From IMG/VR virus record IMGVR_UViG_3300030524_000003: a DNA stretch of 64,000 nt; one strand, written 5' to 3'. Below, piece by piece: positions 4,495 through 47,059 of this stretch. The position numbers were made by a program, and so were the translations under genes. Each line of letters opens with the position of its first letter. Position 1 is the first letter of the stretch. Origin of the DNA: an uncultured virus (IMG/VR IMGVR_UViG_3300030524_000003) (lineage: Duplodnaviria; Heunggongvirae; Uroviricota; Caudoviricetes). The notes under the pieces are model-generated. The model was not told the origin of the DNA and made no database searches. It saw only the letters and a program-made list of their open reading frames with translations.

Positions 4495-4968
4495 TTACGC
4501 GGCATTCAAGAGTGCTATATCGTCGGCTGCGCGGTTTGGCACCTGCTGAGCCCACAGGGATTGCCCGGCGTAGATGGCGGCCTGCTTGTAGTTTCCGGCA
4601 TTGATCGCGCCGATCTCGCGATGGAACTGGCTGAAGGTCGGCAGGCCCATATTGAAAACTTGATCGACGATCACCGCCTGGACGTTGTCGGGCATCGTCA
4701 TGAAGGTCGGAAACAGGGTCATCGCCTCGGAGACTGCCTCGTGGAACTGGTAGTCGAATATCTCGTCGATCTGCGCGTCTGTCAGCGTGGCCGTGCCGTC
4801 TAGCAGTCCCGGAAGGCTTATCCCGAAGTGATCGCAGATGTCTTGCGCGTCAGCGTCACGAAGGTTGAACCCGATTCCGATTGTTGGAATGCCCTTCGAA
4901 TCTAAGTACACCGCCGCCCGGCGTCCCTCGTGCTTTGTGATTAGCTGCTGGATAAATGGCTCGTTCAT
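4495..4968 (-). CDS. Endolysin, GH24 (T4-type) lysozyme
   Basis: HEG-RR-AVYLDSKGIPTIGIG catalytic E-D-T motif, FNMG, W..QVPNRA. Confidence 0.9.
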   Translation of the reverse strand: MNEPFIQQLITKHEGRRAAVYLDSKGIPTIGIGFNLRDADAQDICDHFGISLPGLLDGTATLTDAQIDEIFDYQFHEAVSEAMTLFPTFMTMPDNVQAVIVDQVFNMGLPTFSQFHREIGAINAGNYKQAAIYAGQSLWAQQVPNRAADDIALLNAA

Positions 4969-31203: not shown

Positions 31204-31716
31204 CTACTGCGTATTTCTGGCCAGCATGATAAGATTCCGCGCCTTACCACGCTGATCTTCGGGGATGTGGTCGAATATGGTTCCACCGTTTAGGTGCTCA
31301 ATCTCGTGCTGAACGCACCGAGCTGCAAGGTGGGAGAGTTCGATGTCGATCTCTTTCCCGCTTGGGGTTGTCGCCACCAGACGGACGCGCACCGCACGCT
31401 CCACCATCACCTTGATCGTCGGTGGTAAGCTCATACACTCCTCGACCTTCGAGACGCGCTCGTTGCTCTCCCACACGATCTCCGGATTCACAAAGATGCT
31501 CTTGGTTTTGAGGCCGAGAAGCTTCGTATTCAGCACGAAGACGCGGTAGAGCGAACCGATCTGGTTGGCCGAGAGGCCCACGCTCTTCCGCTTCACCTGC
31601 TTCAACGCAGCCATCAAGTCTTCGCCCACCTGTCGGGCGATGTCGTCACGACCTTCAGGAACCGGGACGCAGGGTGTAGTCAGGATTGGGTTGGGGTATT
31701 GGATGATGTGCGGCAT
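31204..31716 (-). CDS. def: Peptide deformylase
   Basis: VGLSANQIG, EECMS (EGCLS variant), QHEIEHLNG. Confidence 0.9.
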   Translation of the reverse strand: MPHIIQYPNPILTTPCVPVPEGRDDIARQVGEDLMAALKQVKRKSVGLSANQIGSLYRVFVLNTKLLGLKTKSIFVNPEIVWESNERVSKVEECMSLPPTIKVMVERAVRVRLVATTPSGKEIDIELSHLAARCVQHEIEHLNGGTIFDHIPEDQRGKARNLIMLARNTQ

Positions 31717-31967
31717 TAGACGGGTAACCCTCCCTCGCGTCGGGCAAGCTTCTCACCCTCTGCCATGTCCATCACCCGAATGACAAACTTTCCGCCACGG
31801 CAGTCAGCCACAACGCACTTCTCGTTGTCGCCGAGCCGCAAGACGTCCTCGGACAGAATCTCCACATCGGTCAGGCCAAACTTCAGCATGAGAACGCCCA
31901 CGATCTTGTGCCAGTTATCGTGGGTGAGCCGCGTGACTGGATGATCGGGATTTAGTTCGTCACCCAC
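31716..31967 (-). CDS. Hypothetical phage protein
   Basis: 83-aa ORF translationally coupled on both sides. Confidence 0.65.
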   Translation of the reverse strand: MGDELNPDHPVTRLTHDNWHKIVGVLMLKFGLTDVEILSEDVLRLGDNEKCVVADCRGGKFVIRVMDMAEGEKLARREGGLPV

Positions 31968-32167
31968 TAGCGGTTGAACCTCTCGATCCTGCGACGGAGG
32001 ATATCCCTGTACACCGTCATCGCTGCACGTTGATCGACAAGATGCCGCCGGTCTATCTTGTCGAGGTTTTTGAAAATACTGGAGTCCTCGATGAAGACGT
32101 GTAGTTTCTCCAACTTTGCGTCCAGTTCCTCATGCTCGTCTACGACTCGCTGCTGATGTGCTTCCAT
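31967..32167 (-). CDS. crAss001_48-like small phage protein
   Basis: HQQRVVDE..EL..KL.KL..FI...L..Q..AM..Y..IL..RI..F. Confidence 0.7.
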   Translation of the reverse strand: MEAHQQRVVDEHEELDAKLEKLHVFIEDSSIFKNLDKIDRRHLVDQRAAMTVYRDILRRRIERFNR

Positions 32168-32188
32168 TTTGGTTTCCTCGTCAAAATG

Positions 32189-32631
32189 TGGTGGGCAGAG
32201 GCGGGGTGTACAACCCCTGGCTTCCTCTGCCTTTTAGCATGCCCCGTTTACCCCGCACGAGACCCCTATCGCGTGTACTTGCCCTTGACGCCGGGCTTTC
32301 TGGTCAGGTCTTGGTTCGCCAAGCCGTTGCTAAAAACTTTAGTTGGGGTGACGGTCCCCGTTTACTCATCTGCCAGCCTGTACTCCGATGTGAGTTGGAC
32401 TATCACCGCTAACTTTGCCGCCGTCATTCGGCTCGGGTGAAGCTCTGTCGCTTTTCGTCTCTCAGCCCACTGGCCTTCGCGTTGGGTATATGTTGTGTCC
32501 TGAAACTTTGGGCCATTTTCGTATTGAAATAGGCCTCCGTCAAAGTCATCGAATTTCGCTATAACCCGAGAAATAGCCGCTCGCGTAGGACATTTATAAG
32601 GTCCGTCTTAGAAGCGGGCTCATCCAGACCT
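32189..32631 (-). ncRNA. Candidate structured non-coding RNA of about 443 nt
   Basis: No sense-strand ORF of 60 aa or more; own promoter; several long-range complementary pairs; ends in an 8-bp stem plus CACCA. Confidence 0.65.
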
Positions 32632-32637
32632 GAAGAC

Positions 32638-32684
32638 AATCTACCGCATCATGCAAGCATGCGCAATGGTATCTTTGGTAACCA
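32638..32684 (-). promoter_or_regulatory. Promoter TTGCGC-17-TAGATT with the operator (32651-32660) in the spacer and an upstream TGGTTACCAAAGATACC box
   Basis: Same architecture as the promoter at 20259-20305. Confidence 0.7.
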
Positions 32685-32712
32685 AAAAGAACCCACCCCG
32701 GCTAGGGTGGGG
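32684..32712 (-). terminator. Intrinsic terminator insulating the ncRNA promoter
   Basis: CCCACCC-TAGCCG-GGGTGGG followed by TTCTTTTT on the minus strand. Confidence 0.65.
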
Positions 32713-32820
32713 AGTAGAGAGTTTCCCTTGGTTTACGTTCGCTGCGAATTTTCCAAGTTCACATCGAATGCCGCGATTCTAGGCATAGAAAAACCGGGCG
32801 TCAACAGGTTTATTCGATTA

Positions 32821-32952
32821 TTACCCATCGGCGGGCGGTATCTCGACTGGTTGACCGGGGGATGTGCCGGACGACCCCGGCGGCTTCAATGGGTTCGATG
32901 TGCGCGTCATTGGACCGAAAAAACCCACGAGTGTAAGGATGATTGCTAACAC
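32821..32952 (-). CDS. 43-aa peptide with a hydrophobic N-terminus and a Pro-rich tail
   Basis: GGAGG RBS and GTG start: MLAIILTLVGFFGPMTRTSNPLKPPGSSGTSPGQPVEIPPADG. Confidence 0.45.
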   Translation of the reverse strand: MLAIILTLVGFFGPMTRTSNPLKPPGSSGTSPGQPVEIPPADG

Positions 32953-32956
32953 GGGT

Positions 32957-33124
32957 TCACCTCCGCCTCTTTGACTTCCTGTTTGCGCTGCGATGCTTCA
33001 CGCGCTTCGGGAGCTTGCGCTTGCCAGTCTCGCGCTGCCACTTCTTTGCGGTCCCACGCGGCAGTTCTCCCCTAGCCTCTTTGGCGTAGAAAAGTCGTCT
33101 TTGAGCCTCGCTCTTAAATGGCAT
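32957..33124 (-). CDS. 55-aa basic phage protein (MPFKSEAQRR family)
   Basis: MPFKSEAQRRLFYAKEARGEL..AKKW.RET..KLPKRV, a recurrent small phage protein pattern. Confidence 0.7.
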   Translation of the reverse strand: MPFKSEAQRRLFYAKEARGELPRGTAKKWQRETGKRKLPKRVKHRSANRKSKRRR

Positions 33125-33127
33125 GGC

Positions 33128-33277
33128 CTAGCGGAGTCCACCGCGAAGCAGCAGGATGATAAGGATGATGAGCAAGACGGTTCCGATGCTGAAGCCACCG
33201 TTATAACCCAGCCCCGGCCCGGCATACCAGCCGCCGCCGAAGCAGAGCAGTACGAGTACGATGAGAAGAATAAGCAT
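33128..33277 (-). CDS. 49-aa DUF3309-like membrane protein
   Basis: MLILLIVLVLLCFGGGWYAGPGLGYNGGFSIGTVLLIILIILLLRGGLR; GGAGG RBS. Confidence 0.7.
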   Translation of the reverse strand: MLILLIVLVLLCFGGGWYAGPGLGYNGGFSIGTVLLIILIILLLRGGLR

Positions 33278-33291
33278 TGTAGCCTCCGTGT

Positions 33292-36200
33292 TCACTGAAT
33301 GGCGTGAGTCCTACGTCGTGCTGGCCGCCGATGCCGAATGTGCTCCGACTTCGATTCCTCTGGCTTCGCCGGTCTGAAAAAAGCTTCTACCGTTCCAACG
33401 GGTGCAATTTCCTGCTTTGCGAGGTCTGCGAGGATTTTACTCCTGCGCTCCTCAGTCGATGCCTTATGGTGAACCCCGTCGTCCCCAAACGTCTTGTAGT
33501 AGTTGATTCCCGCCAGTCGAATATGATCTAGGTCTGAGGCTAGGATGCCGCCTGATTCCTCAGCGGTTGCAAACTCCAGTCGCTTCTTCGTGTCGAACGA
33601 CTTGATATCCTTCGGCTCGTGCGTCGCCAGCCGGTCAAACATGACCTTGGCAGGATAGATTCCCATGCCATACGACACGTTGCCAAGCTCGAGCCAGAGC
33701 GCATCCTGGGGGTGTTCCTGAATACCTTCGAACCGGCGTAGTTCTTCGGCGGCCGCTTCGGGGTTTTTCTTCTTGTTGATGCCATACTGCATGACGCGAA
33801 GGCCCATACCAGCCGCTCCGAAGCCGATCAGCCAGCGCCCCAGAGCCTTATAGTCCTTCTCTGTCCAATCCGGGTTCTTCATGCCTTCAAACACGGTGCG
33901 ATTCACTAGGTTCGCCGTCTTGAAGGTGTAAGTTTTGAGCATCCAGGTCAGCCGCATTAGTGTATTCTGCTGCTTGCTGATTGGGTGGTCGGCGGCGTAG
34001 CGAACACTTGGGGGCAACTCTGAGGGTCTGCCGCTACCCGTCGTCCAATCAGCAGCCGCAATCATCGCCCTGCGGACGTCGGAAGTGTTATAGCCCGACG
34101 CCGCGATCCGGTCCATATCTTCGTCCGAATACGCATAGAGGTCCTGAAGCTTCCGACGGAGCTGCACATCCTTCGGGTTCGCCTTGAGCGCCGGCGCGGC
34201 GTAGCGCTCGAGGAAGACACGCCCCGCGGCCGAAGAAACAATCCGCGATATCCAGATGGCCGGCGTGAATCCGGTCAGGGTCAGCATCTTCTGGTCGAGG
34301 CCTCCCGCGTGGAGTCCATACTCCATCATCATCGCCTGGCGCACGTAGTCGGTGAGGATGCCTGCGTCCCGCGCCATGCGCGTCGCTTCAATCGGGCTCG
34401 TGGCCGTGCTGAAAACACCTCCGGCCAGGGATCGCAAATTGGTTACAAGTCCGGTTTTGGCCATGTGATACGGCAACTTCAGCGTGCTCAGGCCCATCTT
34501 CGACAATACGACCCATTGCGACGCTGCGCGCAGGAGCCGCTTGTTGCTCTCACCCACAGACGAGGGGTTTAGGTCTGCGCTCACTACGCTGTCGACCACC
34601 TGCTGAGTAGCCAGCGGGAGTTGGAGGATGAGTGGATTCAGCTTCTCGCGCTCCTGCCCAACGGTCTCGATGTTTGCCAGCATCGACGCTACCTGGTCGA
34701 CGTAGACATTCATCGCACGGTTGGTGGTGTCGTAGTCGGGGATGCTGGTTCTGCGGCCTTTTTCGAGGTTGCCCGACAAGCGAACGCCACGGCGATTCTT
34801 TTCAAAGAACTTCGCTGCATCGACAACGCTGATTCCGCGCTTGCCGGCATAGGCTTCGATCAAGTCTTGGCGGCGCGCATCGTTCGTCGGCATGTCGTGG
34901 ATCTCGCCAAGTGTCGTAACCGTCGGCTTTGCACCGTTTTTGCCTTCGATGAGGATCGGCTTATTCCAGTCGTAAATGTGTGGCCAGTAGTTCGGGTCAT
35001 CCGCGATCTGCTTGTAAGTCACCGTTTGCTCTTTGCCGTCGCGGTAGAACTTCATCTTGGCGCCAGCGTCTCCGAGACGGTTCCGCACGTACGAAAAGAA
35101 CGTGCGGTAGCCGTCCACGGCCTTCAGGATGGCAGGGTCAGTGCTCTCTGCCTTGCCTTCGAGAACCTTCACAACGAGTGGGTGGTCGCTGGGCCGGATG
35201 TCACCGATGATGTCGGACACTTTGGCCAGCAGTTCGCCCTGATGGTCAGTCTTCAGGTGGCTACGCTCGATCAACCGCCGCTGCACCTCGCGACCCTCGC
35301 TCGGGAAGCCTTCGTGGGCCATAATCTTGCGAATTGCCTGGTCGCCCGACGTGTGGCGCAGGTACATCCACTCACGCGCAAAGTCCTTCAGCGCCGCAAG
35401 CTGTTTGCCGGCCGTGTGCTGGAAGAAGAGACCGCGCTCACCTATTGCCAGATCGAAACCGATCTTCGAATCCTTTGCTGCGCGCTCGACCGCAGGCACA
35501 ACCGGCTCACGCGCTACCGCAGCTTTTGCGCCCTCGATCGCTACATCGGCGGAGATGGCTGGCGTGTTCGCCAGATACGCTCTACGCATAGAAGGTGGTA
35601 CATCTTCGAGGTTCCGCTTCATCGCCTCCGAGGTGCTCTTGTCGATGGGATCGTCCACCGGCCCCTGATAGAGACGCTTCGGCTGGGCCTTATACTTCAT
35701 GCCTTTATCCTTGCCGATTGCGTCCTTGGCCCGTGGCAGTTTCAAGTCCTCTATGCGCGTGAAACCTACTCCGGCCCCGCGCTCCTCAAACTGCGCGGCC
35801 TCCGGCGCAGATTCGTTGCCCATCTCGTAGTCGATTGCCTCTTCCGAGATGCCGACCGACTCGCGCAGACTCTTTGCAAGTCTGCTCTCGACTACCTCGC
35901 CACGCACAACAGCGTTCAACGCCCGCATGCGCGGGAGGATTTTGGTCGTCAGCACCTTGATTTCGGGCAGCGCGTCGGATGTTAGGAAGATTTTGGCTAC
36001 GTTCGACTTCGTCCCGTAGCGCCACGTTCGGCCGGTGCTCTGCTCGAACATGATTCCAGACCACGGCAGGCCAAGGTGGATGTCCATTCTTGGACGGTCG
36101 CCAGCGCGATCGTGAAAACTAGCTCCAACACCGCCGGCAGCGTAGGTCGTATAAACGCCCTTCTTGGTTCCGTCCATGAATGCCTGGCGTTCTTCAGCGC

Positions 36201-39200
36201 GAAGCTCGTTTGCCGACCCAGCGAAGATCCCAATGTCCTGCTTCAGTCCATCGCGCATCGCCTCAACCACATCAGGCAGCGCTGGCAGCATCTTGTTGAG
36301 GTGGTCTGCCATTCCAGCGGGCAGACGCTCAAAGAACTTCATGCCTTCAGACGTCCCTGAGCGGTACTCGCTGTAGATCACGGGGTTCCAGCCGTCCGCA
36401 ATAGCCTTCTTGGCCATCTCGATCGCATGCGGTAGCCGCGCCGACTCGATGTATCGCTTGAGGTAGATGACCTCCTGGGCCTGGGTCGCTCGTGCCATCG
36501 ACGATTTGCCCTGTTCGCGGAAAATCTTTCCAGCAAGGTTGAATACGTCGCGAATCTTCTTCACGCCATCCTGCACCTCTGGTGTCTGCTCGACCAGTCC
36601 GACGTGCGCGGTGACGCCATCAAGGTCGCGGTGCAGCGATGCCCATTGGCCACGCTCAATAAGCTGCTGGCGGAGTTTCAAAAGCTTCTTTGGAGCGTAA
36701 CCGCCTGTGTAGGAGTTGGGTCCGGTTTCGACCACGCCGAATTGACGGGCCCACTCGAAGAATCCGCCCTCCGGCCACAGCCCAAGCTTGTCCATATAGC
36801 CGATTTCGACAGCAGTATGAAACGGCGTCGCGCTCATGTAAACCGCTTTCTTCGCCGCCCGGCCTAAAAGACGACCACTTTGGCCCTGCTCTGACTCCAT
36901 CCACTTTCGAAGCTCTGCCGACTCGTCGAAGATCACGAAGTCCCACGGGATCGACAGCATATCCTTGTCACCGCGAATCTGGGCGTAGGTCGTCGCGTAC
37001 GTTCCGCCGCCTTGGACGTCGTTCATTGAGGCTGGTAGTCCTTCGACTGAAACTCCAAGCTGCTTGCCCACGTCTACATAGCCATCTGAATCGTGGATGA
37101 GGTTCCGGCTCCGAGTAACGATGAGTCCGACCTTTTCTCCAGAATCTCCTAGCAGTTGATCGGCGATCGCGAGCGCTTGGAACGTTTTCCCAGATCCGGT
37201 TGGACTCGCAACCACAACGCCGTCATACTGTTGCAGTCCAGAGAGAGCGACTTCGATAGCTTCCGGTTGCCCCGGAAAAATCATTAGATTGCGCAGGTCA
37301 TCAGGCAACCTCACTGTCGGCGCTGGAGTACCCTCTGGCAACCCGAGAGCCTCCGCGTAGTCTCTCCATGCCTCCGGCGACGCCAGCGGGGTGCCGCGGG
37401 CGCGCTTTGGCGCAGCCAGCGATGCTGCTGGCATCTTTGCTAGGGGGAGACTGGCTGCTCGTTTTCCGTCAGCAGTTTCCTCTCCTCTTCCACTAGGCTC
37501 TGGATGTCCTGGTAGAACCCGTCCGGTGGTCTCATCCCGCCCGTCGGCCGCTCCGGTTCGTTCAGGAACTTCCGCAGTTCGAGTAGCGTCGGGTAGCCCA
37601 GCATTTCCATCAGGTACTTCTCGTACGTTTGCCCTTTCGCCATCGCGTCCTCCAAATTCCGTGGTGCCGTACACCTGACGCGCCGACATCGCCTGCGCAG
37701 GGGTGGTTGGCTCCTCCATGTGTGGCATTTCCGCCACACCATGCACTGCATTGATTACTTCTGAATTTGCCCTCTCTGGCGTACTGCCGAAGATGAGCGT
37801 GGAACCACCCAGTCGATTCTCAACACTGGCCAGTTGCGCCCGAATCTTCGCCTCTTCGCGGGGATCAGTTGTAGTTCGGAGCCGCTCCTCAAGTTGCCGA
37901 GCCTGACGAGCAAGGTCCCCGATAGATGCCGCTCCGCCCTGATAAAGCCGCTTGCCAACCGTCGAAGCCTTGACATAGAAGTTACCGTCCTTCCCGTCGA
38001 AAAGCTGGTAAGTGCGAATTGCCTGATTGTTGCGGTCGATGAAATCGTCTGCCGATTTGCGATCAGTGAACACAAAATTTCGGGCGTTCGGGTCGATGTG
38101 CGCTGTCTCGTCCAAAATCCTCGCACCCTCTGGAATGGCGACTTTGGGGTCCTTGACCGACTTCTCGAGCGCGTCAACGTCGACACGCGCCGTAATCGGC
38201 TTCCGCTCCGACCGGGTCCAGTCGTACCAATTGTCGAACATCTTCTCGACTTCGGGAGAAGCCTTCGCCAGACCACGGCCACGCACCGCATCGTAAACAG
38301 CCTGAATTGCCTTGTGGATGGTGTCGAAGGCCTTTTCGAGAGCGCCGCGGCGTCGGCCGCCATCGTAGTGATACCGCTCGAAGGCCTCCGCAAACTTCTC
38401 TTCCTGCGCCGTCGTCCACTCTGCACCCGGTCTGGCCTCGACAAACTGGTTGAGAATCGCCTGATCGCTTCCGTTGAGGTAGTGCCGGATAGCGTGCGCA
38501 GCCTCGTGGATGACAGTCGAGGTGTCCGCTTTGTCGAAGAGGTGAATCAACTTCGATCCGTCCTCCATAATGTCGGTCGCACCGCGAGCTCCACGGTCTT
38601 CGCCGCCAAAACGGAAGCGAATCATCTTGTTCTTGAGGATCGTGTCGAACGACTCGCCAATAGCGCGTGGCAGAACCCGCTCGAAGATATCTCCAACCGC
38701 TTCAGCCTGCTCGTCGGTAAATCCGGGGTGGTCAGCCAACGCCTTGCGGAAATCGCGCACACTGGTGGGTTCGAAGCCTTTCTCGTTCTCGATAACCGAA
38801 CTGGAGTCCGGCTGGATTGCCTCTTCCACAGCTTCAGCCGCACGCGCTGGTTCCACCGGAAGTCCGTTCCGCGCCTCTTCGATGATCTCCTTGGCTGCGT
38901 CAGGGAGCCCACCAACCATGCCCCACTCTTCAGGAATGACCTCCATACCGTACTTGCTGGCAATCTGCTCGGTGAATACATCTGCCGGGTGGATGGCTCC
39001 GAACATCGTCACGCCGCCGCGCTCCGCCTCTTCGGCGTAGTCGCCAATCATGTTGGCGTACTCGCGTGGAGTCTCTTCGAGAGCTCGCGCCAGAGATTCA
39101 ACCGCCGGATGGACCGGTGGGTGTGTTGCCTGACCATCAAAACTCAGATCGAAGTTCGAAAGGCGATACCGCTCTGGATGGAGAAGACGCTCGATAAGCG

Positions 39201-42200
39201 ATTCGCTGCCGTGAGACTCGTCCTTGGTGACATCTCTTCCTTCGAGTTGATTCAGCCTTGCGGACTGGTCTTGTGCGCGGGTCATCAGTTCGACCGCATC
39301 CGTGTTGTAGCTCGCTAGATTCCAGATTTCACCAGCCGAACGCATGATGACGAAGTCCATGCCCACGCGGCCAAGCTTGTCCTTGATCGCCGCGCTGGTT
39401 CGACCGAGCACCTGCGGATTCGAGACGGCGATTCCCGCTAGGGTGTTTTCAATGAGCGCCTTCGCGGGCTCCGTCAGGTCACCATCCTCGGTGAAGTAGG
39501 CTGAGCGCTTCTTTGGATCAACCAGACCGGCATCGCGAAGGATGTCAGCAAGGTCGGCAGAACGCGCACGCATCGCCGTCCGCAAGCTGGAGTCTCCGGA
39601 TACCGACCGAAACACGTTCGCCATCCGCTCGACGACGGATGGAGTCAGTAGCCGTGAAAGAGCCGCCGATTGCTCGGTGGAGCTCATCCCCTGGCTGGGG
39701 TCGCGATTCATCTCGATGCCATACCGCGCCAGCGTGGCAGGGTCGGTCACCGTGCGGTCCATCACCCGGACAAGCACGGGGTTGCGCATCTCGAAGATGG
39801 AAGCGGGGTCGATACCAAACGCCTGTGCGCGGTCAAGGATCGAGGCTCGAACCTCTTCGTACCGGCCACGCTTCTGCGCCAGCTTCATGCTCTGCGTGCG
39901 TCCGTTTCCCGACAGCACCGTGCCGTCAGGCATAACGATCGGTGGCCCATCCACCGGCAACACGGAGTTGCTGAGGATCTGGTCAGCGTCAAGCGCGCCA
40001 GCACGCTCCTCTACAGCCGCCTGGAGTTCCGGTTGATCTTGGTAGTTGCGCGGTTGCGCTTCCTGCGGGTAGCGCGGGTCTGGTGTGTAATTTTCAGTAC
40101 TACGATGAGAAGTAATAAGATTATTAGAATCGACAACCGCATAGTGGACTGGCACCTCTTCGCCAGAGTTCAACCTGACACGAGTTTCTCGGCCTAGAAT
40201 GGCCGGCATTTTTGGATTCGTCTCGCGCTCCGTACGTGGTTTGACCACCTCAGTCGCCGCGACAATCTCATCCTCTTTGCGCTGGATAAAGTCAGCCGTG
40301 TCACGCAGCGCCTCGGCTTCAGCCTTCTGCTCCGGTAGTGCCTCGGGACCACCCAGACGGTCGGCGGCCCGGTTGATGACCTGCTTCTGGTCTTCAAAGT
40401 GGACTACCTCACGCGCAGCTCGTTCAGTGCCAGATTCAATGTCGGTACGCATCCGCGAGATGAGGTCTTCCCGATAAGCATCGAGCACCTGACGCTCAGC
40501 CGCAGCACGGGTCTGCCGCATCTGGCTCATAAACTCGTTCATGTCCGGAGAGCGCTGGCTCTCGGGTATCTTCCGAATGGCGCGCTGCACGTCAAAGATG
40601 TCGCGTGACCCGCCAACATCCTGAAGGTTGATGCGCTCTGCCAAACGGGTCAGGCCTTTCGCCTGGTTGGTTAGGGCCTCCCCTGCTCCAGTCTCCGCCG
40701 ATGTTGCATTGGTAATCGTGTTGCGAATCTGCTGCACATGGTCTGCGCGAGCTTCACGCACTGCCTGCCCGGCAAGCTCCTGATCGACCTGTGCGCGGGT
40801 CGAATCGCGATAGGCCATCAGCGTGTCGACCTGCTGCCTGTCGCGTAAAGACGCCTCGTAGTTGGCAACGTCGATATGCTCACCGCGAGAGAGACGGTCA
40901 GCAATCTCTGGCGTGGTAAACGCTTTGGCGCGTGCCGGATCTTCATTGAGGAAGCCAGCCAGCGCGGACACCTGATCGCTCTTTTCGATGGCGTCGAAGC
41001 TCTTGCCGAAGTTTTTCTCCGAGTACTCCGAAAGTGCCCGGTAGATGTCGGGTGCGGCCTTCATCGAAGCTGCAATGTTTGAGTGCTCGAGGATGACTCG
41101 TGCCAAGCCAGCAGTCTCATCCGCTCCCGGCGCCAGGGGTTCGCCTGTACCTTCGTTGCGGTTCATCCAGCGCGTGACGGCTGGCCTCGAAGCTTCGACC
41201 ATATCGGCGTGACGGCGATACGCATCGTAGGCTGGCGTCGCTTTGAAGGCGTCCCACTTCTCCGGCTGCTCGCGCTCAAACTTCGATGCAACCTCGCGCT
41301 GGCGATCAAGCGGCAAGCTCGAGAATGAGGCCCCAGCGTTCTCTTCGGCATACTCCTGCACTGGCCGCTCCAGTTCGGAAGCAGTCTGAATTTCGACCGA
41401 TCCTGGAGCGGTGCGCTTGTCCACCACTTTGACGCCACCCTCCATCGGCTCGGGACTGGGAGCGTGGACGGGTTCCGTTTCCTTTTCGGTCGTCTTGACC
41501 AATCCTCGATCACCACGGGTGTTGCGTCGCTGATCGTTGACACCGAATCCGCGCTCTTCAGCGGCCGGGGTAATCTCGTCGGCCTTAGCAGCCTGATACT
41601 GTGTGCGTCGCTGGGCTTCTTCGTTGGCTTTGACTTTAGCCTCAGCCGCCGCCTGCGCCTGCTTGTACTGCTCCGCCGCCCGCTGACGCTGTAATTCTTG
41701 GCCTAGAACAGTTTTGGCCGCCTGCAATCTGGCGGAGTTGGCTTTTGCTCGGTCGTTCATCCACTCGATATCAGCCTGAGCGTCGCCGCGAGTCTGCGAC
41801 TTGCGAATCTTGTCCGTCTCCTGGTCCACGCGCTTGCGAAACCCTGGACTTTGATCCTCTACTGAGGAGTAGAGTGTATGCGCCTTCTCGGGGTCGGTAA
41901 GCTGTTTAAATGGCTTCTTATAGAGGTCCTTCGCTTTATCGTTGAGTCGAGCGGTATTCTCGCCGCCCTCGGCGATCTTGCCACCAACGTGCGGAACGAC
42001 GATCATGGCGACGTTTGCCGCCATCTCGCCCCAAGCTTCGTTTTCTCCGGCATCGTCCCCACGCTGACGAGCTTCGTGGATCTGGTGCGCGGTATCGACG
42101 ATACCCTCGCCCATAGTCGGCATCATCGCCAAACCAACGGCGTGCATCGCGGACGCAACATACTCGCCACCCTTGACCACCGCAGCGCCCGGAGCGGCCA

Positions 42201-42657
42201 TCATCGCGACTTGTGTGGGCGACGTCATCCCAGATACAGCGCGGGATGCTCCCTTCGAAAGTTGCCCCAGCTTCGTCTTCGGGTTGACTGGGAATAGCTC
42301 TTCCACCGCTACGAGCGGGTGGTTGACAAAGTTGCGAAATGCCGCGGTATAATCGCCGGTAACCTGCGCAGCCTGCTTCGCTTCACTAACAGCGCCGCTG
42401 GCTCCGGAGTAGCCCACCGTGTTCTTTACACGCTCCCACCATGTCGGGTTATAGGCGCTGATCGACGCAGTCGGAGCTTCAGTTTTCGGTTTCTCGGCAG
42501 GCTTGTCGAATGAACCGACGACAGCGCCGGCTGGAAGACCCTTGATCTTCGGCGCGTCGGTGTGCTTTGGTTTAGGCTGCGGCTTTGAGAATGAGCCGAC
42601 AACGGCTCCCGGTGGAAGTCCCTTCACTGCGGGCGGGTTTACTTGCTCGTCTGCCAT
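33292..42657 (-). CDS. Large polyvalent internal-virion protein (ddrB-like ParB, HExxH zincin-like motif, Strawberry-notch-type SF2 helicase)
   Basis: HYAVVD..LITSH...QPRNY...GPPIV..DG.VLSGNGR; STVIHEAAH; SPTGSGKT, FDESA, SATP, GGVGASFH, PWS...EQ..GRTWR. Confidence 0.85.
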   Translation of the reverse strand: MADEQVNPPAVKGLPPGAVVGSFSKPQPKPKHTDAPKIKGLPAGAVVGSFDKPAEKPKTEAPTASISAYNPTWWERVKNTVGYSGASGAVSEAKQAAQVTGDYTAAFRNFVNHPLVAVEELFPVNPKTKLGQLSKGASRAVSGMTSPTQVAMMAAPGAAVVKGGEYVASAMHAVGLAMMPTMGEGIVDTAHQIHEARQRGDDAGENEAWGEMAANVAMIVVPHVGGKIAEGGENTARLNDKAKDLYKKPFKQLTDPEKAHTLYSSVEDQSPGFRKRVDQETDKIRKSQTRGDAQADIEWMNDRAKANSARLQAAKTVLGQELQRQRAAEQYKQAQAAAEAKVKANEEAQRRTQYQAAKADEITPAAEERGFGVNDQRRNTRGDRGLVKTTEKETEPVHAPSPEPMEGGVKVVDKRTAPGSVEIQTASELERPVQEYAEENAGASFSSLPLDRQREVASKFEREQPEKWDAFKATPAYDAYRRHADMVEASRPAVTRWMNRNEGTGEPLAPGADETAGLARVILEHSNIAASMKAAPDIYRALSEYSEKNFGKSFDAIEKSDQVSALAGFLNEDPARAKAFTTPEIADRLSRGEHIDVANYEASLRDRQQVDTLMAYRDSTRAQVDQELAGQAVREARADHVQQIRNTITNATSAETGAGEALTNQAKGLTRLAERINLQDVGGSRDIFDVQRAIRKIPESQRSPDMNEFMSQMRQTRAAAERQVLDAYREDLISRMRTDIESGTERAAREVVHFEDQKQVINRAADRLGGPEALPEQKAEAEALRDTADFIQRKEDEIVAATEVVKPRTERETNPKMPAILGRETRVRLNSGEEVPVHYAVVDSNNLITSHRSTENYTPDPRYPQEAQPRNYQDQPELQAAVEERAGALDADQILSNSVLPVDGPPIVMPDGTVLSGNGRTQSMKLAQKRGRYEEVRASILDRAQAFGIDPASIFEMRNPVLVRVMDRTVTDPATLARYGIEMNRDPSQGMSSTEQSAALSRLLTPSVVERMANVFRSVSGDSSLRTAMRARSADLADILRDAGLVDPKKRSAYFTEDGDLTEPAKALIENTLAGIAVSNPQVLGRTSAAIKDKLGRVGMDFVIMRSAGEIWNLASYNTDAVELMTRAQDQSARLNQLEGRDVTKDESHGSESLIERLLHPERYRLSNFDLSFDGQATHPPVHPAVESLARALEETPREYANMIGDYAEEAERGGVTMFGAIHPADVFTEQIASKYGMEVIPEEWGMVGGLPDAAKEIIEEARNGLPVEPARAAEAVEEAIQPDSSSVIENEKGFEPTSVRDFRKALADHPGFTDEQAEAVGDIFERVLPRAIGESFDTILKNKMIRFRFGGEDRGARGATDIMEDGSKLIHLFDKADTSTVIHEAAHAIRHYLNGSDQAILNQFVEARPGAEWTTAQEEKFAEAFERYHYDGGRRRGALEKAFDTIHKAIQAVYDAVRGRGLAKASPEVEKMFDNWYDWTRSERKPITARVDVDALEKSVKDPKVAIPEGARILDETAHIDPNARNFVFTDRKSADDFIDRNNQAIRTYQLFDGKDGNFYVKASTVGKRLYQGGAASIGDLARQARQLEERLRTTTDPREEAKIRAQLASVENRLGGSTLIFGSTPERANSEVINAVHGVAEMPHMEEPTTPAQAMSARQVYGTTEFGGRDGERANVREVPDGNAGLPDATRTAEVPERTGAADGRDETTGRVLPGHPEPSGRGEETADGKRAASLPLAKMPAASLAAPKRARGTPLASPEAWRDYAEALGLPEGTPAPTVRLPDDLRNLMIFPGQPEAIEVALSGLQQYDGVVVASPTGSGKTFQALAIADQLLGDSGEKVGLIVTRSRNLIHDSDGYVDVGKQLGVSVEGLPASMNDVQGGGTYATTYAQIRGDKDMLSIPWDFVIFDESAELRKWMESEQGQSGRLLGRAAKKAVYMSATPFHTAVEIGYMDKLGLWPEGGFFEWARQFGVVETGPNSYTGGYAPKKLLKLRQQLIERGQWASLHRDLDGVTAHVGLVEQTPEVQDGVKKIRDVFNLAGKIFREQGKSSMARATQAQEVIYLKRYIESARLPHAIEMAKKAIADGWNPVIYSEYRSGTSEGMKFFERLPAGMADHLNKMLPALPDVVEAMRDGLKQDIGIFAGSANELRAEERQAFMDGTKKGVYTTYAAGGVGASFHDRAGDRPRMDIHLGLPWSGIMFEQSTGRTWRYGTKSNVAKIFLTSDALPEIKVLTTKILPRMRALNAVVRGEVVESRLAKSLRESVGISEEAIDYEMGNESAPEAAQFEERGAGVGFTRIEDLKLPRAKDAIGKDKGMKYKAQPKRLYQGPVDDPIDKSTSEAMKRNLEDVPPSMRRAYLANTPAISADVAIEGAKAAVAREPVVPAVERAAKDSKIGFDLAIGERGLFFQHTAGKQLAALKDFAREWMYLRHTSGDQAIRKIMAHEGFPSEGREVQRRLIERSHLKTDHQGELLAKVSDIIGDIRPSDHPLVVKVLEGKAESTDPAILKAVDGYRTFFSYVRNRLGDAGAKMKFYRDGKEQTVTYKQIADDPNYWPHIYDWNKPILIEGKNGAKPTVTTLGEIHDMPTNDARRQDLIEAYAGKRGISVVDAAKFFEKNRRGVRLSGNLEKGRRTSIPDYDTTNRAMNVYVDQVASMLANIETVGQEREKLNPLILQLPLATQQVVDSVVSADLNPSSVGESNKRLLRAASQWVVLSKMGLSTLKLPYHMAKTGLVTNLRSLAGGVFSTATSPIEATRMARDAGILTDYVRQAMMMEYGLHAGGLDQKMLTLTGFTPAIWISRIVSSAAGRVFLERYAAPALKANPKDVQLRRKLQDLYAYSDEDMDRIAASGYNTSDVRRAMIAAADWTTGSGRPSELPPSVRYAADHPISKQQNTLMRLTWMLKTYTFKTANLVNRTVFEGMKNPDWTEKDYKALGRWLIGFGAAGMGLRVMQYGINKKKNPEAAAEELRRFEGIQEHPQDALWLELGNVSYGMGIYPAKVMFDRLATHEPKDIKSFDTKKRLEFATAEESGGILASDLDHIRLAGINYYKTFGDDGVHHKASTEERRSKILADLAKQEIAPVGTVEAFFRPAKPEESKSEHIRHRRPARRRTHAIQ

Positions 42658-42685
42658 GTACGCCAATCATAATCGGAAGCTTGTA

Positions 42686-47019: not shown

Positions 47020-47059
47020 ATGCTTGCATGAATGTACAACATGCTTGCATGCTCGGCAA
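47020..47059 (-). promoter_or_regulatory. Promoter TTGCCG-17-TACATT with two operators (47041-47050 in the spacer, 47020-47029 over +1)
   Basis: Two exact motif copies 21 bp apart. Confidence 0.7.

What the first reader, a model, noticed from the sequence alone, without database searches (positions are those of the whole stretch)
32189..32631. Free-standing ~443-nt structured RNA with its own promoter, a group-I-like core signature and an ACCA 3' end
Seen: the minus strand has no ORF of 60 aa or more here. It is preceded by a terminator and a well-spaced promoter (TTGCGC-17-TAGATT) that carries the phage operator. The predicted 5' end AGGUCU can pair with AGACCU (32306-32311). CUCGGGU (32564-32570) lies in a GCUAU/AUAGC hairpin loop and can pair with ACCCGAG (32432-32438), which would form a pseudoknot. 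UUUUAGCA/UGCUAAAA (32328-32335 / 32232-32239) closes a 3' multi-hairpin domain. GUAAACGGGG occurs twice. The RNA ends in GGCAGAGG...GGGG-UUGUACA-CCCC-G-CCUCUGCC-C-ACCA, which resembles a T-arm and acceptor minihelix. Established: group I introns carry R (..AGAGACUA) and S (..AUAGUCC) elements that form P7. Here CUGAGAGACGA (32455-32465) and GAUAGUCC (32397-32404) occur in that order with one mismatch, followed by a P9-like hairpin. No interrupted gene flanks the element. Inference: this may be an undescribed large phage ncRNA, possibly a repurposed group-I-derived ribozyme with a tRNA-like 3' handle. I could not identify convincing P1 or P4-P6 elements.
Basis: partly seen in the sequence, partly recalled or inferred. 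Interest (0 to 1): 0.85.

Follow-up and report, generated by a model that had tools for sequence, protein, structure and literature searches.

The report
Modular structured RNA in peat phage
This gene-free stretch of a peat phage encodes a string of conserved folded RNA modules, one of them a kink-turn/pseudoknot element found in many other phages near their tRNA genes and listed in no RNA family catalogue, but it is not a group I intron relic.

Summary
It is not a group-I-derived ribozyme. Rfam 15 gives no relevant hit, and the proposed R/S elements are not conserved in the one homologue that covers them.

The 443 nt are a string of separately conserved RNA modules behind an operator-bearing promoter:
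- **Module a (32632-32569):** a kink-turn-like hairpin whose loop forms a pseudoknot with downstream sequence. A pattern scan found at least 119 IMG/VR stretches. In 62 distinct sequences, 90.6% of 805 cells are paired, against 30-50% in slid controls. It also occurs in Stenotrophomonas phage Pokken (inside the tRNA island) and Salmonella virus PAT1.
- **Module c (about 32477-32336):** shared with one other phage, with little covariation.
- **Module b (32335-32232):** In 4 distinct sequences, 17 of 24 pairs show compensatory changes.
- **3' hairpin plus CACCA (32231-32189):** stable, but not detectably tRNA-like.

The modules occur alone or in other orders elsewhere, often beside tRNAs, which is the genomic setting described for GOLLD and ROOL. 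Function, transcript ends and expression remain untested.

The parts
32776..32804 (-). Promoter-like site TTGACG-17-TAGAAT that heads a separate short unit upstream of the finding.
   Evidence: 10 of 12 consensus matches.
32685..32770 (-). Short ORF-free unit of about 85 nt ending in an intrinsic-terminator-like hairpin (32711-32692). It is a candidate small RNA and is not part of the 443-nt RNA.
   Evidence: for the terminator. for the fold: -26 kcal/mol, z -1.84.
32638..32666 (-). Promoter TTGCGC-17-TAGATT with the repeated operator-like motif ATGCTTGCATG (32660-32650) in its spacer.
   Evidence: Similar blocks precede the homologous RNAs in L022, L024 and L058. The site is below the threshold of the scan.
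32569..32632 (-). Module a. Outer stem AGGUCUG/CGGACCU, then a GAU bulge and tandem GA/GA (a kink-turn-like sequence). [quoted passage not shown]
   Evidence: CM R3, built from 62 other sequences, scores it 35 bits at E 4.7e-7.
32478..32568 (-). Middle segment containing the GCUAU/AUAGC hairpin and the GACUUUG/CAAAGUU helix. There is no comparative support beyond a hairpin-plus-GAUAA-like arrangement seen after module a in other phages.
   Evidence: Centroid fold. The flanks listed were read by eye.
32336..32477 (-). Module c. Blocks CAGUGGGCUG, CGAAUnnCGGCG and CACAUCGGAGUA, a GUAAAsGGG hairpin with loop ACCGyyA, and AAAGUUUU. All are shared with L058.
   Evidence: Sequence blocks are conserved, but only 1 of 18 predicted pairs shows a compensatory change.
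32232..32335 (-). Module b. A four-helix junction (P1 to P4) with conserved unpaired CUGACCAGAAA and UACACGCGAUAG and the loop GCGGGGUAA.
   Evidence: CM hits. In 4 distinct sequences, 94.7% of 94 cells are paired and 17 of 24 pairs changed on both sides.
32189..32231 (-). 3' hairpin GGCAGAGG...GGGG-UUGUACA-CCCC...CCUCUGCC followed by CACCA.
   Evidence: -21 kcal/mol, z -2.97. No tRNA call.
32185..32193 (-). Tail CACCACAUU, identical to the 3' strand of the closing helix of the module-b domain in L043. In the window, CAUUUUG can pair weakly with CAAAAUG at the next gene's start codon.
   Evidence: -4.6 kcal/mol, z 0.04, so there is no energetic support.
31967..32167 (-). First downstream gene, a crAss001_48-related protein of 66 aa. 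Its start codon lies 21 nt after the ACCA, and no terminator intervenes.
   Evidence: PF21825, E 2e-19. Sequence.

Best explanation
**What is shown**
- Window 32189-32631 (minus strand) is non-coding.
- It carries at least two RNA modules whose base pairing is maintained by compensatory changes in other phages.
- Module a is a kink-turn-like hairpin whose loop pairs with downstream sequence.
- Module b is a four-helix junction with invariant unpaired nucleotides.
- A third block, module c, is conserved in sequence.
- None of these matches any Rfam 15 family.

**What is inferred**
- The stretch is transcribed from the operator-bearing promoter at 32666-32638, as the 5' part of the transcript that runs on into the crAss001_48-like gene.
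- It works as RNA: a string of independently folding units comparable to a tRNA island, not one large ribozyme.
- The modules behave as cassettes. Module a occurs alone with its own terminator, between tRNAs, or at the head of an RNA of about 1 kb. Module b occurs alone in front of a PNKP or a dUTPase gene.
- The units are probably trimmed out or stabilised by the host's tRNA/RNA-processing enzymes. They would then act in trans as folded RNAs that bind a protein, an RNA or a small ligand connected with tRNA or translation.
- The stable 3' hairpin would mark the boundary with the mRNA.

The molecular target is unknown.
For: **Non-coding**
- No minus-strand ORF above 41 aa lies in the interval.
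- The small ORFs on either strand have no Pfam family.

**Module b**
- CM hits in three other phage lineages: L022 at 54.7 bits, L058 at 87.3 and L059 at 52.5.
- 89 of 94 cells are paired and 17 of 24 pairs changed on both sides. Slid controls gave 37-46% paired and 2-6 such pairs.
- P1, P2 and P3 also appear in the independent MFE folds of the window and of L022.

**Module a**
- The pattern scan returned at least 119 IMG/VR stretches.
- In 63 of 64 distinct sequences the outer stem is extended by 3 further pairs, using 12 pair combinations.
- A pseudoknot helix of 6 bp or more forms with a sequence's own partner in 46 of 57 cases, against 12.6% of 3112 cross-pairings.
- 90.6% of 805 cells are paired and 178 cells changed on both sides. 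Slid controls gave 30-50% and 16-55.
- The window scores 35 bits (E 4.7e-7) with a model built without it.

**Modularity and setting**
- L087 has module a followed directly by a terminator.
- L085 has tRNA-Met, then the motif 6 nt later, then about 960 nt, then tRNA-Glu.
- In Pokken the motif lies between tRNA-Gln and tRNA-Arg.
- L058 has four tRNAs, a promoter, about 1 kb of RNA carrying modules a, b and c, a degenerate tRNA-like element and a terminator.
- 13 of 80 loci hold a tRNA or tmRNA within 1.5 kb, always on the motif's strand.
- Relatives of the giant gene carry tRNAs at the equivalent position: L009 has three tRNA-Leu, and L016, L028 and L032 have tRNA-Lys.

**Absent from Rfam**
-.
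Against: - No transcript data exist. All 24 listed sequencing runs that hold the stretch are DNA.
- The promoter is weak by the sigma-70 consensus and was not listed.
- No terminator separates the RNA from the next gene. Three of the four module-b instances sit directly upstream of a coding gene, which fits a cis-acting leader equally well.
- Thermodynamic folding gives no signal for the whole RNA or for modules a, b and c: z +0.26, +0.49, -0.65 and +0.08.
- Module b rests on only 4 distinct sequences, aligned by a model derived from the proposed structure.
- The module-a set was collected with a pattern taken from the window and two relatives. The conserved strings are therefore partly there by construction, and the kink-turn assignment rests on recalled consensus rules.
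- Module c has almost no covariation.
- All close copies of this phage are 100% identical, so the 3' hairpin and the middle segment have no comparative test.
Confidence: 0.6

Rival explanations
1. Cis-acting structured leader. The modules, module b above all, are a 5'-UTR element such as an orphan riboswitch or a protein-binding leader. It would control transcription, stability or translation of whichever gene follows, and no stable free RNA is made.
For: - Module b is followed within about 25-35 nt by a start codon in L022 (PNKP) and L043 (dUTPase), with no terminator between.
- In the window the first gene starts 21 nt after the ACCA.
- A junction with invariant unpaired nucleotides is typical of ligand-binding aptamers (recalled knowledge).
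- The tail CAUUUUG can pair with CAAAAUG at the start codon.
Against: - The downstream genes are unrelated to each other: PNKP, dUTPase and a crAss001_48-like protein.
- In L058 module b lies inside an RNA of about 1 kb that ends in its own terminator, with no gene after it.
- Module a also occurs between tRNAs and as a free-standing unit with its own terminator.
- No convincing expression platform was found, and the start-codon hairpin has z 0.04.
Confidence: 0.3
2. One reading: one 443-nt ribozyme derived from a group I intron, carrying a tRNA-like 3' handle.
For: - The strings CUGAGAGACGA and GAUAGUCC and the ACCA-ended hairpin are present.
- The hairpin is very stable.
Against: - Intron_gpI, tRNA, tmRNA, RNase P, GOLLD and ROOL all gave no hit at E<=10 or at gathering score.
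- The R and S strings fall in non-conserved columns of the alignment with L058.
- No P1 or P4-P6 elements and no flanking exons are present.
- ARAGORN finds no tRNA at default or '-ps' settings.
- The parts of the RNA occur independently in other phages.
Confidence: 0.03
3. Decayed remnant of a tRNA island or other junk spacer with no present function. The conserved pieces would merely be carried along by recombination between phages.
For: - Relatives carry tRNA genes at the same position.
- Degenerate tRNA-like elements occur in L058 and in E. coli E2348/69, where one is annotated as 'pseudogenic tRNA-Gly'.
- The window itself holds no tRNA.
Against: Compensatory changes that keep helices in module a (62 sequences) and module b (4 sequences) indicate selection on structure. 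Modules a and b bear no resemblance to tRNA.
Confidence: 0.05

Closest known systems
GOLLD (RF01998) and ROOL (RF03087), large ornate phage/prophage RNAs
   Same: - They are phage-encoded, non-coding and of unknown function, and are often next to or inside tRNA islands. tRNAs sometimes lie within GOLLD's variable linker (passages read in PMC5737381 and bioRxiv 10.1101/2024.12.08.627333).
- Relatives of this RNA reach about 1 kb: L058, L085, and the PAT1 gap, which I read as running from a promoter to a terminator.
- They sit among tRNAs or carry tRNA-like elements.
   Different: - There is no sequence or structure match to either model at E<=10.
- The RNA here is short (443 nt) and built from cassettes that occur separately and in varying order.
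- Nothing is known about multimer or cage formation.
Phage tRNA islands and polycistronic small-RNA strings (for example the dicBF/DicF precursor of prophage Qin, or T4 stable RNAs C and D beside its tRNAs; recalled, not read here)
   Same: - A promoter drives a row of independently folded small RNAs.
- tRNAs or tRNA look-alikes sit within or at the end of the row.
- Content varies between related phages.
   Different: The units here are not tRNAs and do not match DicF or any Rfam sRNA. Processing has not been shown.
Kink-turn plus pseudoknot architectures in riboswitches (SAM-I, c-di-GMP-II; recalled)
   Same: In module a, a kink-turn-like GA/GA bulge sits at the base of a hairpin whose loop pairs with a downstream strand.
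   Different: - No match to those Rfam families was found.
- Module a often stands alone or between tRNAs, not before a defined class of genes.
- No ligand is known.
Group I introns (RF00028)
   Same: Only two short strings resemble the R and S elements.
   Different: There is no CM hit, no P1 or P4-P6, no exons, and the strings are not conserved in the homologue.

Membership tests
Group I intron (RF00028) | Match to the covariance model of the conserved core (P3-P9, including P7 formed by R and S). | tested here: not met
   No Intron_gpI hit at gathering score or at E<=10 on 31900-33000.
Group I intron (RF00028) | R and S elements conserved among homologues. | tested here: not met
   In the alignment with L058, the window's CUGAGAGACGA faces a gap or unrelated letters, and GAUAGUCC faces non-identical columns.
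Group I intron (RF00028) | Interrupts a host gene (flanking exons, P1 with the splice site). | tested here: not met
   The flanks are a terminator and promoter upstream and an intact 66-aa gene downstream.
tRNA / tRNA-like 3' element | Cloverleaf, or at least a T arm with a canonical T loop, detected by ARAGORN or the Rfam tRNA model. | tested here: not met
   ARAGORN finds 0 genes in the window and 0 in the region at default and '-ps' settings. There is no tRNA-clan hit at E<=10. The loop is UUGUACA.
tRNA / tRNA-like 3' element | Acceptor/T-type coaxial minihelix ending in NCCA. | tested here: inconclusive
   An 8-bp plus 4-5-bp hairpin followed by CACCA is present and stable. There is no comparative support, and the same tail is a helix strand in L043.
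tmRNA | tRNA-like domain formed by the 5' and 3' ends, plus a tag reading frame. | tested here: not met
   ARAGORN finds none and Rfam gives no hit.
GOLLD / ROOL | Match to the family covariance model. | tested here: not met
   No hit in the window, in L058, in L085, or in PAT1 and Pokken.
GOLLD / ROOL | Phage or prophage location near tRNA islands. | tested here: met
   This holds for relatives: L058, L085, Pokken, and 13 of 80 module-a loci. The window itself has no tRNA.
Module-a family (kink-turn-like pseudoknot, defined here) | Outer stem NNNCUG/CGGNNN, GAU bulge plus GA...GA, loop-to-downstream pseudoknot, linker UAAAUGUC. | tested here: met
   R3, built without the window, scores it 35 bits at E 4.7e-7. 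The outer stem is 7 bp and the pseudoknot is CCGCUU/GAGCGG, 6 bp (row L121).
Module-b family (four-helix junction, defined here) | P1-P4 with CUGACCAGAAA, UACACGCGAUAG and the GCGGGGUAA loop. | tested here: met
   The window is the founding member. Three further lineages match at E<=4.4e-14 and show covariation.
Known riboswitch or self-cleaving ribozyme classes in Rfam (hammerhead, twister, pistol, hatchet, HDV-like, c-di-GMP-II, SAM-I and others) | Match to the family model. | tested here: not met
   No hit at E<=10. Self-cleavage and ligand binding themselves cannot be tested with these tools.

The most novel reading that the evidence does not exclude
The window's RNA may be one member of an undescribed, widespread superfamily of modular phage 'RNA islands'. 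Its kink-turn/pseudoknot module, found from peat phages to Schitoviridae and epsilon15-like phages, would be a new functional RNA class. One possibility is a self-processing or RNase-guiding element that sets RNA ends next to tRNAs. Another is a new aptamer. The four-helix junction (module b) would be a second new class.
Probability: 0.15. Interest if true: 0.9.

Novelty: new variant of a known kind. Interest (0 to 1): 0.72.

Why it matters
- Phage tRNA islands are known to harbour large RNAs of unknown function (GOLLD, ROOL). This finding suggests the phenomenon is broader and modular.
- A compact kink-turn/pseudoknot element with strong covariation occurs in at least 119 IMG/VR stretches and in cultured phages of Stenotrophomonas, Xanthomonas, Salmonella and Klebsiella. 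It is annotated nowhere that I looked and is absent from Rfam 15.
- Because cultured carriers exist, expression, processing, binding partners and phenotype can be tested directly.
- For genome annotation, it explains gene-free gaps of about 0.4-1 kb in phage genomes as RNA genes and not as spacer.

Tried and rejected
**Rfam**
- The only hit in the region was LLnc147, at E 7.5 on the opposite strand, which is at chance level.
- Weak hits elsewhere were all far below gathering scores and are treated as chance: YrlA at E 2, mascRNA at E 3.8 and Tymo_tRNA-like at E 5.8 in L058; SNORD35 at E 5.4 over module a in L085; Methylophilales-1 at E 0.033 in PAT1.

**Microdiversity**
- Two IMG/VR contigs, two JGI contigs, and Logan contigs of 4 runs laid at 80% likeness were all identical to the window. 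No covariation can be drawn from close relatives.

**Expression**
- No RNA holder was listed among the 24 runs.

**Wider searches**
- BLAST of 31900-33300 against GenBank phages found no match.
- Module-b patterns in genome contigs gave 7 matches, none confirmed by the CM.
- In viral contigs, L040 and L044 were chance matches.
- Module b is absent from 63 module-a and cultured-phage loci.

**Rows dropped**
- Of the 80 module-a loci, 6 were dropped as probable coding or chance matches: L073, L092, L097, L117, L130 and L136.
- The window's own copies and L058's copy (L121, L134, L115) were left out of the model.
- My six-frame 'ORF-free span' measure over-calls ORFs in GC-rich DNA and was not used.

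**Other checks**
- Another genetic code is not needed, because the 3124-aa gene and its neighbours read through under table 11.
- No 5' partner for the CACCACAUU tail was found in the window.

**Literature**
- Four searches found no description of either module.
- A search of the supplements of PMC10690425 also found nothing, but 3 of its files could not be searched. A prior listing among those 10,006 candidates cannot be excluded.

Full report
**Setting**

The window is most of an IMG/VR phage record of 68 kb. A JGI contig of 97 kb carries the same sequence (L025), and the runs that hold it are peat metagenomes.

The finding lies in a 789-nt stretch, 32168-32956, with no plausible gene. Upstream is a 3124-aa gene (33292-42666, minus strand). 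It is followed by two small genes: a 49-aa hydrophobic protein with a weak DUF3309 match (33277-33128) and a 55-aa basic protein (33124-32957) that is conserved in L009. Downstream is a crAss001_48-related gene (32167-31967), an 83-aa ORF and a peptide deformylase gene.

**Checking the observation**

- The only minus-strand ORF inside the interval is 41 aa.
- A terminator-like hairpin lies at 32711-32692. It ends a separate short unit that starts at a TTGACG-17-TAGAAT site.
It does carry ATGCTTGCATG, which occurs 10 times in the window against 1.31 expected. Similar promoter/operator blocks precede the homologous RNAs in other phages.
- Taken alone, the pairings are unremarkable. The 443 nt fold no better than shuffles (z +0.26), and complementary 6-8-mers occur at chance frequency.
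- Rfam 15 gives nothing at gathering score for the whole window. At E<=10 on 31900-33000 it gives only a chance hit on the other strand. ARAGORN finds no tRNA or tmRNA.

**Finding relatives**

- Close copies are all 100% identical: two IMG/VR contigs, JGI contigs, and Logan contigs from four runs.
- I therefore searched through the neighbouring giant protein.
- Relatives with about 40% identity have ordinary genes right after it.
- Several relatives carry tRNA genes at that spot: three tRNA-Leu in L009, and tRNA-Lys in L016, L028 and L032.
- Contigs with 54-55% identical protein gave the first nucleotide matches inside the finding. L020, L022 and L023 match window 32307-32247, and L024 matches 32634-32584.

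**Module b (32335-32232)**

- In L022, the same kind of operator promoter is followed by about 100 nt that share CUGACCAGAAA, AGUACACGCGAUAG and UGCGGGGUAAA with the window. The sequences differ in between.
- The MFE folds of both sequences independently give a closing helix P1 and hairpins P2 and P3.
- A covariance model built from the window alone, with P1-P4, aligned L022 with 47 of 48 cells paired and 12 of 24 pairs changed on both sides. Slid controls gave 0-3 such pairs.
- Pattern scans added two more lineages: L043/L059 and L052/L058.
- With 4 distinct sequences, 94.7% of 94 cells are paired and 17 of 24 pairs show double changes. Slid controls gave 37-46% paired and 2-6 pairs.
- The genes that follow module b are unrelated: PNKP in L022, dUTPase in L043, and the crAss001_48-like gene here. 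In L058 module b lies inside a longer RNA.

**Module a (32632-32569)**

- L024 and L058 share the window's 5' end: a stem AGG(U)CUG/CGG(A)CCU around GAU-GA...GA, then UAAAUGUC.
- By recalled rules this is the sequence signature of a simple kink-turn: a canonical stem, a 3-nt bulge and tandem G·A pairs.
- In 63 of 64 distinct sequences, three further flanking pairs are kept through 12 different combinations.
- The 3' part of the hairpin loop is complementary to the sequence just after UAAAUGUC-yAcG. A helix of 6 bp or more forms with a sequence's own partner in 46 of 57 cases, against 12.6% of 3112 cross-pairings.
- On a MAFFT alignment of 62 sequences that excludes the window, 90.6% of 805 cells pair and 178 cells are double changes. 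Slid controls gave 30-50% and 16-55.
- A model built from those 62 sequences scores the window at 35 bits (E 4.7e-7). It scores L024 at 55, L058 at 59.5, Pokken at 70.7 and PAT1 at 33.3.
- The window's 5' AGGUCU therefore pairs locally, not with 32306-32311.
- No Rfam family covers the motif.

**Where module a lives**

- L087: the motif is followed directly by a terminator.
- L085: tRNA-Met, the motif 6 nt later, about 960 nt, then tRNA-Glu.
- L065 and L076: a tRNA begins about 110-120 nt after the motif's start.
- Stenotrophomonas phage Pokken (Schitoviridae): the motif is in the unannotated gap between tRNA-Gln and tRNA-Arg.
- Salmonella virus PAT1 (Uetakevirus): the motif is in an unannotated gap of about 1.1 kb, which I read as running from a promoter to a terminator.
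- Of the 80 loci, 13 hold a tRNA or tmRNA within 1.5 kb, always on the motif's strand.
- Parts of the PAT1 gap recur in 1983 of 5426 complete E. coli genomes, without annotation. In E2348/69 a 'pseudogenic tRNA-Gly' is annotated inside it.
- Module a itself is in only 6 of 5426 E. coli genomes.

**The best relative, L058 (G002)**

Its order is: four tRNAs, then a TTGCAC-17-TACATT promoter with an operator-like core, then about 1 kb without credible ORFs. That stretch carries module a, a shared CAAUACGA block, module b, about 330 unique nt, module c and a further closed domain. It ends in a degenerate tRNA-like element that ARAGORN calls only at lowered thresholds, followed by a strong terminator.

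The window has a, c and b in a different order and ends in the hairpin plus CACCA. Module c is conserved in blocks but has only one compensatory pair.

**The 3' end**

- The hairpin is stable (z -2.97) and has 8 + 4-5 stacked pairs followed by CACCA. This resembles an acceptor/T minihelix only loosely, since the loop is UUGUACA and no detector calls it.
- In L043 the identical tail CACCACAUU follows a different hairpin, and there it is the 3' strand of a perfect 10-bp helix closing the module-b domain. The window has no such partner.
- I therefore treat 'tRNA-like handle' as possible but unsupported. An RNase P-type cut 5' of the hairpin is a testable inference, not a finding.

**Interpretation**

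What is shown:
- The interval is non-coding.
- Modules a and b are under selection for structure.
- The modules are separable cassettes.
- Relatives sit in or beside tRNA islands.

What is inferred:
- Transcription starts at the operator promoter.
- The RNA functions as a row of folded units.
- Host RNA-processing enzymes trim or stabilise the units.

The main rival is a cis-acting leader, favoured by the lack of a terminator before the next gene in three of four module-b instances. Two earlier notes of this scan describe comparable 'RNA operons' in E. coli prophages. I used them as leads only.

**Comparison with known systems**

The nearest known kind is GOLLD/ROOL: phage or prophage RNAs of unknown function near tRNA islands (passages read in PMC5737381 and bioRxiv 10.1101/2024.12.08.627333). 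This RNA matches neither model and differs in being short and modular.

I found no description of either module in four literature searches or in the searchable supplements of PMC10690425. Three supplement files could not be searched.

Noticed in passing
window 3051, 4966, 20270, 24880, 24922, 27420, 32650, 47020, 47041, 61445: The near-palindromic motif ATGCTTGCATG occurs 10 times against 1.31 expected. It mostly lies just upstream of gene starts, in either orientation, and occurs twice in the divergent region near 47030. It is likely the operator of a phage regulator that controls several operons.
   Followed up: partly
window 32685-32804 (-): A separate unit of about 85 nt with a good promoter-like site (TTGACG-17-TAGAAT) and an intrinsic-terminator-like hairpin, and no ORF. 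It is a candidate small RNA. L009 has a similarly placed promoter-to-terminator unit of unrelated sequence ahead of its three tRNA-Leu genes.
   Followed up: partly
window 33292-42666 (-): A giant 3124-aa protein with ddrB-like ParB (PF18763) and helicase domains. It has about 20 relatives of 2400-4100 aa, almost all from metagenomes. Some relatives carry additional domains, including Hint/intein and lytic transglycosylase Pfam hits.
   Followed up: no
window 31204-31716 (-): The phage encodes a peptide deformylase (PF01327, E 1.4e-36) in the operon downstream of the RNA.
   Followed up: no
window 32957-33277 (-): Two small genes lie after the giant gene: a 49-aa hydrophobic protein with a weak DUF3309 match, and a 55-aa basic protein beginning MPFKSEAQRR. 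Both have counterparts in L009, in swapped order.
   Followed up: partly
L183 2080-3140 (Salmonella virus PAT1) and E. coli genomes: An unannotated gap of about 1 kb lies between the portal and terminase genes of an epsilon15-like phage. A piece of about 90-150 nt (query 263-418) recurs in roughly 2000 complete E. coli genomes, including plasmids of about 92 kb, without annotation. E2348/69 has a 113-nt 'pseudogenic tRNA-Gly' inside the homologous region.
   Followed up: partly
L127 179-541; L123 (about 260-675 nt after the motif): Phage contigs with module a also carry a permuted (alpha-type) tmRNA gene nearby, on the same strand.
   Followed up: no
L022 1950-2699: In a related peat phage, module b directly precedes a polynucleotide kinase/phosphatase gene (AAA_33 + HAD_PNKP), an RNA-repair enzyme. 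tRNA-Met and tRNA-Lys lie further downstream in the sister contig L024.
   Followed up: partly
L058 3330-3432 (-) (L058rc 4578-4680): A degenerate tRNA-like element with acceptor, D and T arms (T loop TTCAAAT) and a 37-nt insertion in the anticodon region. It sits at the 3' end of the roughly 1-kb RNA, just before its terminator, and ARAGORN calls it only at lowered thresholds.
   Followed up: partly
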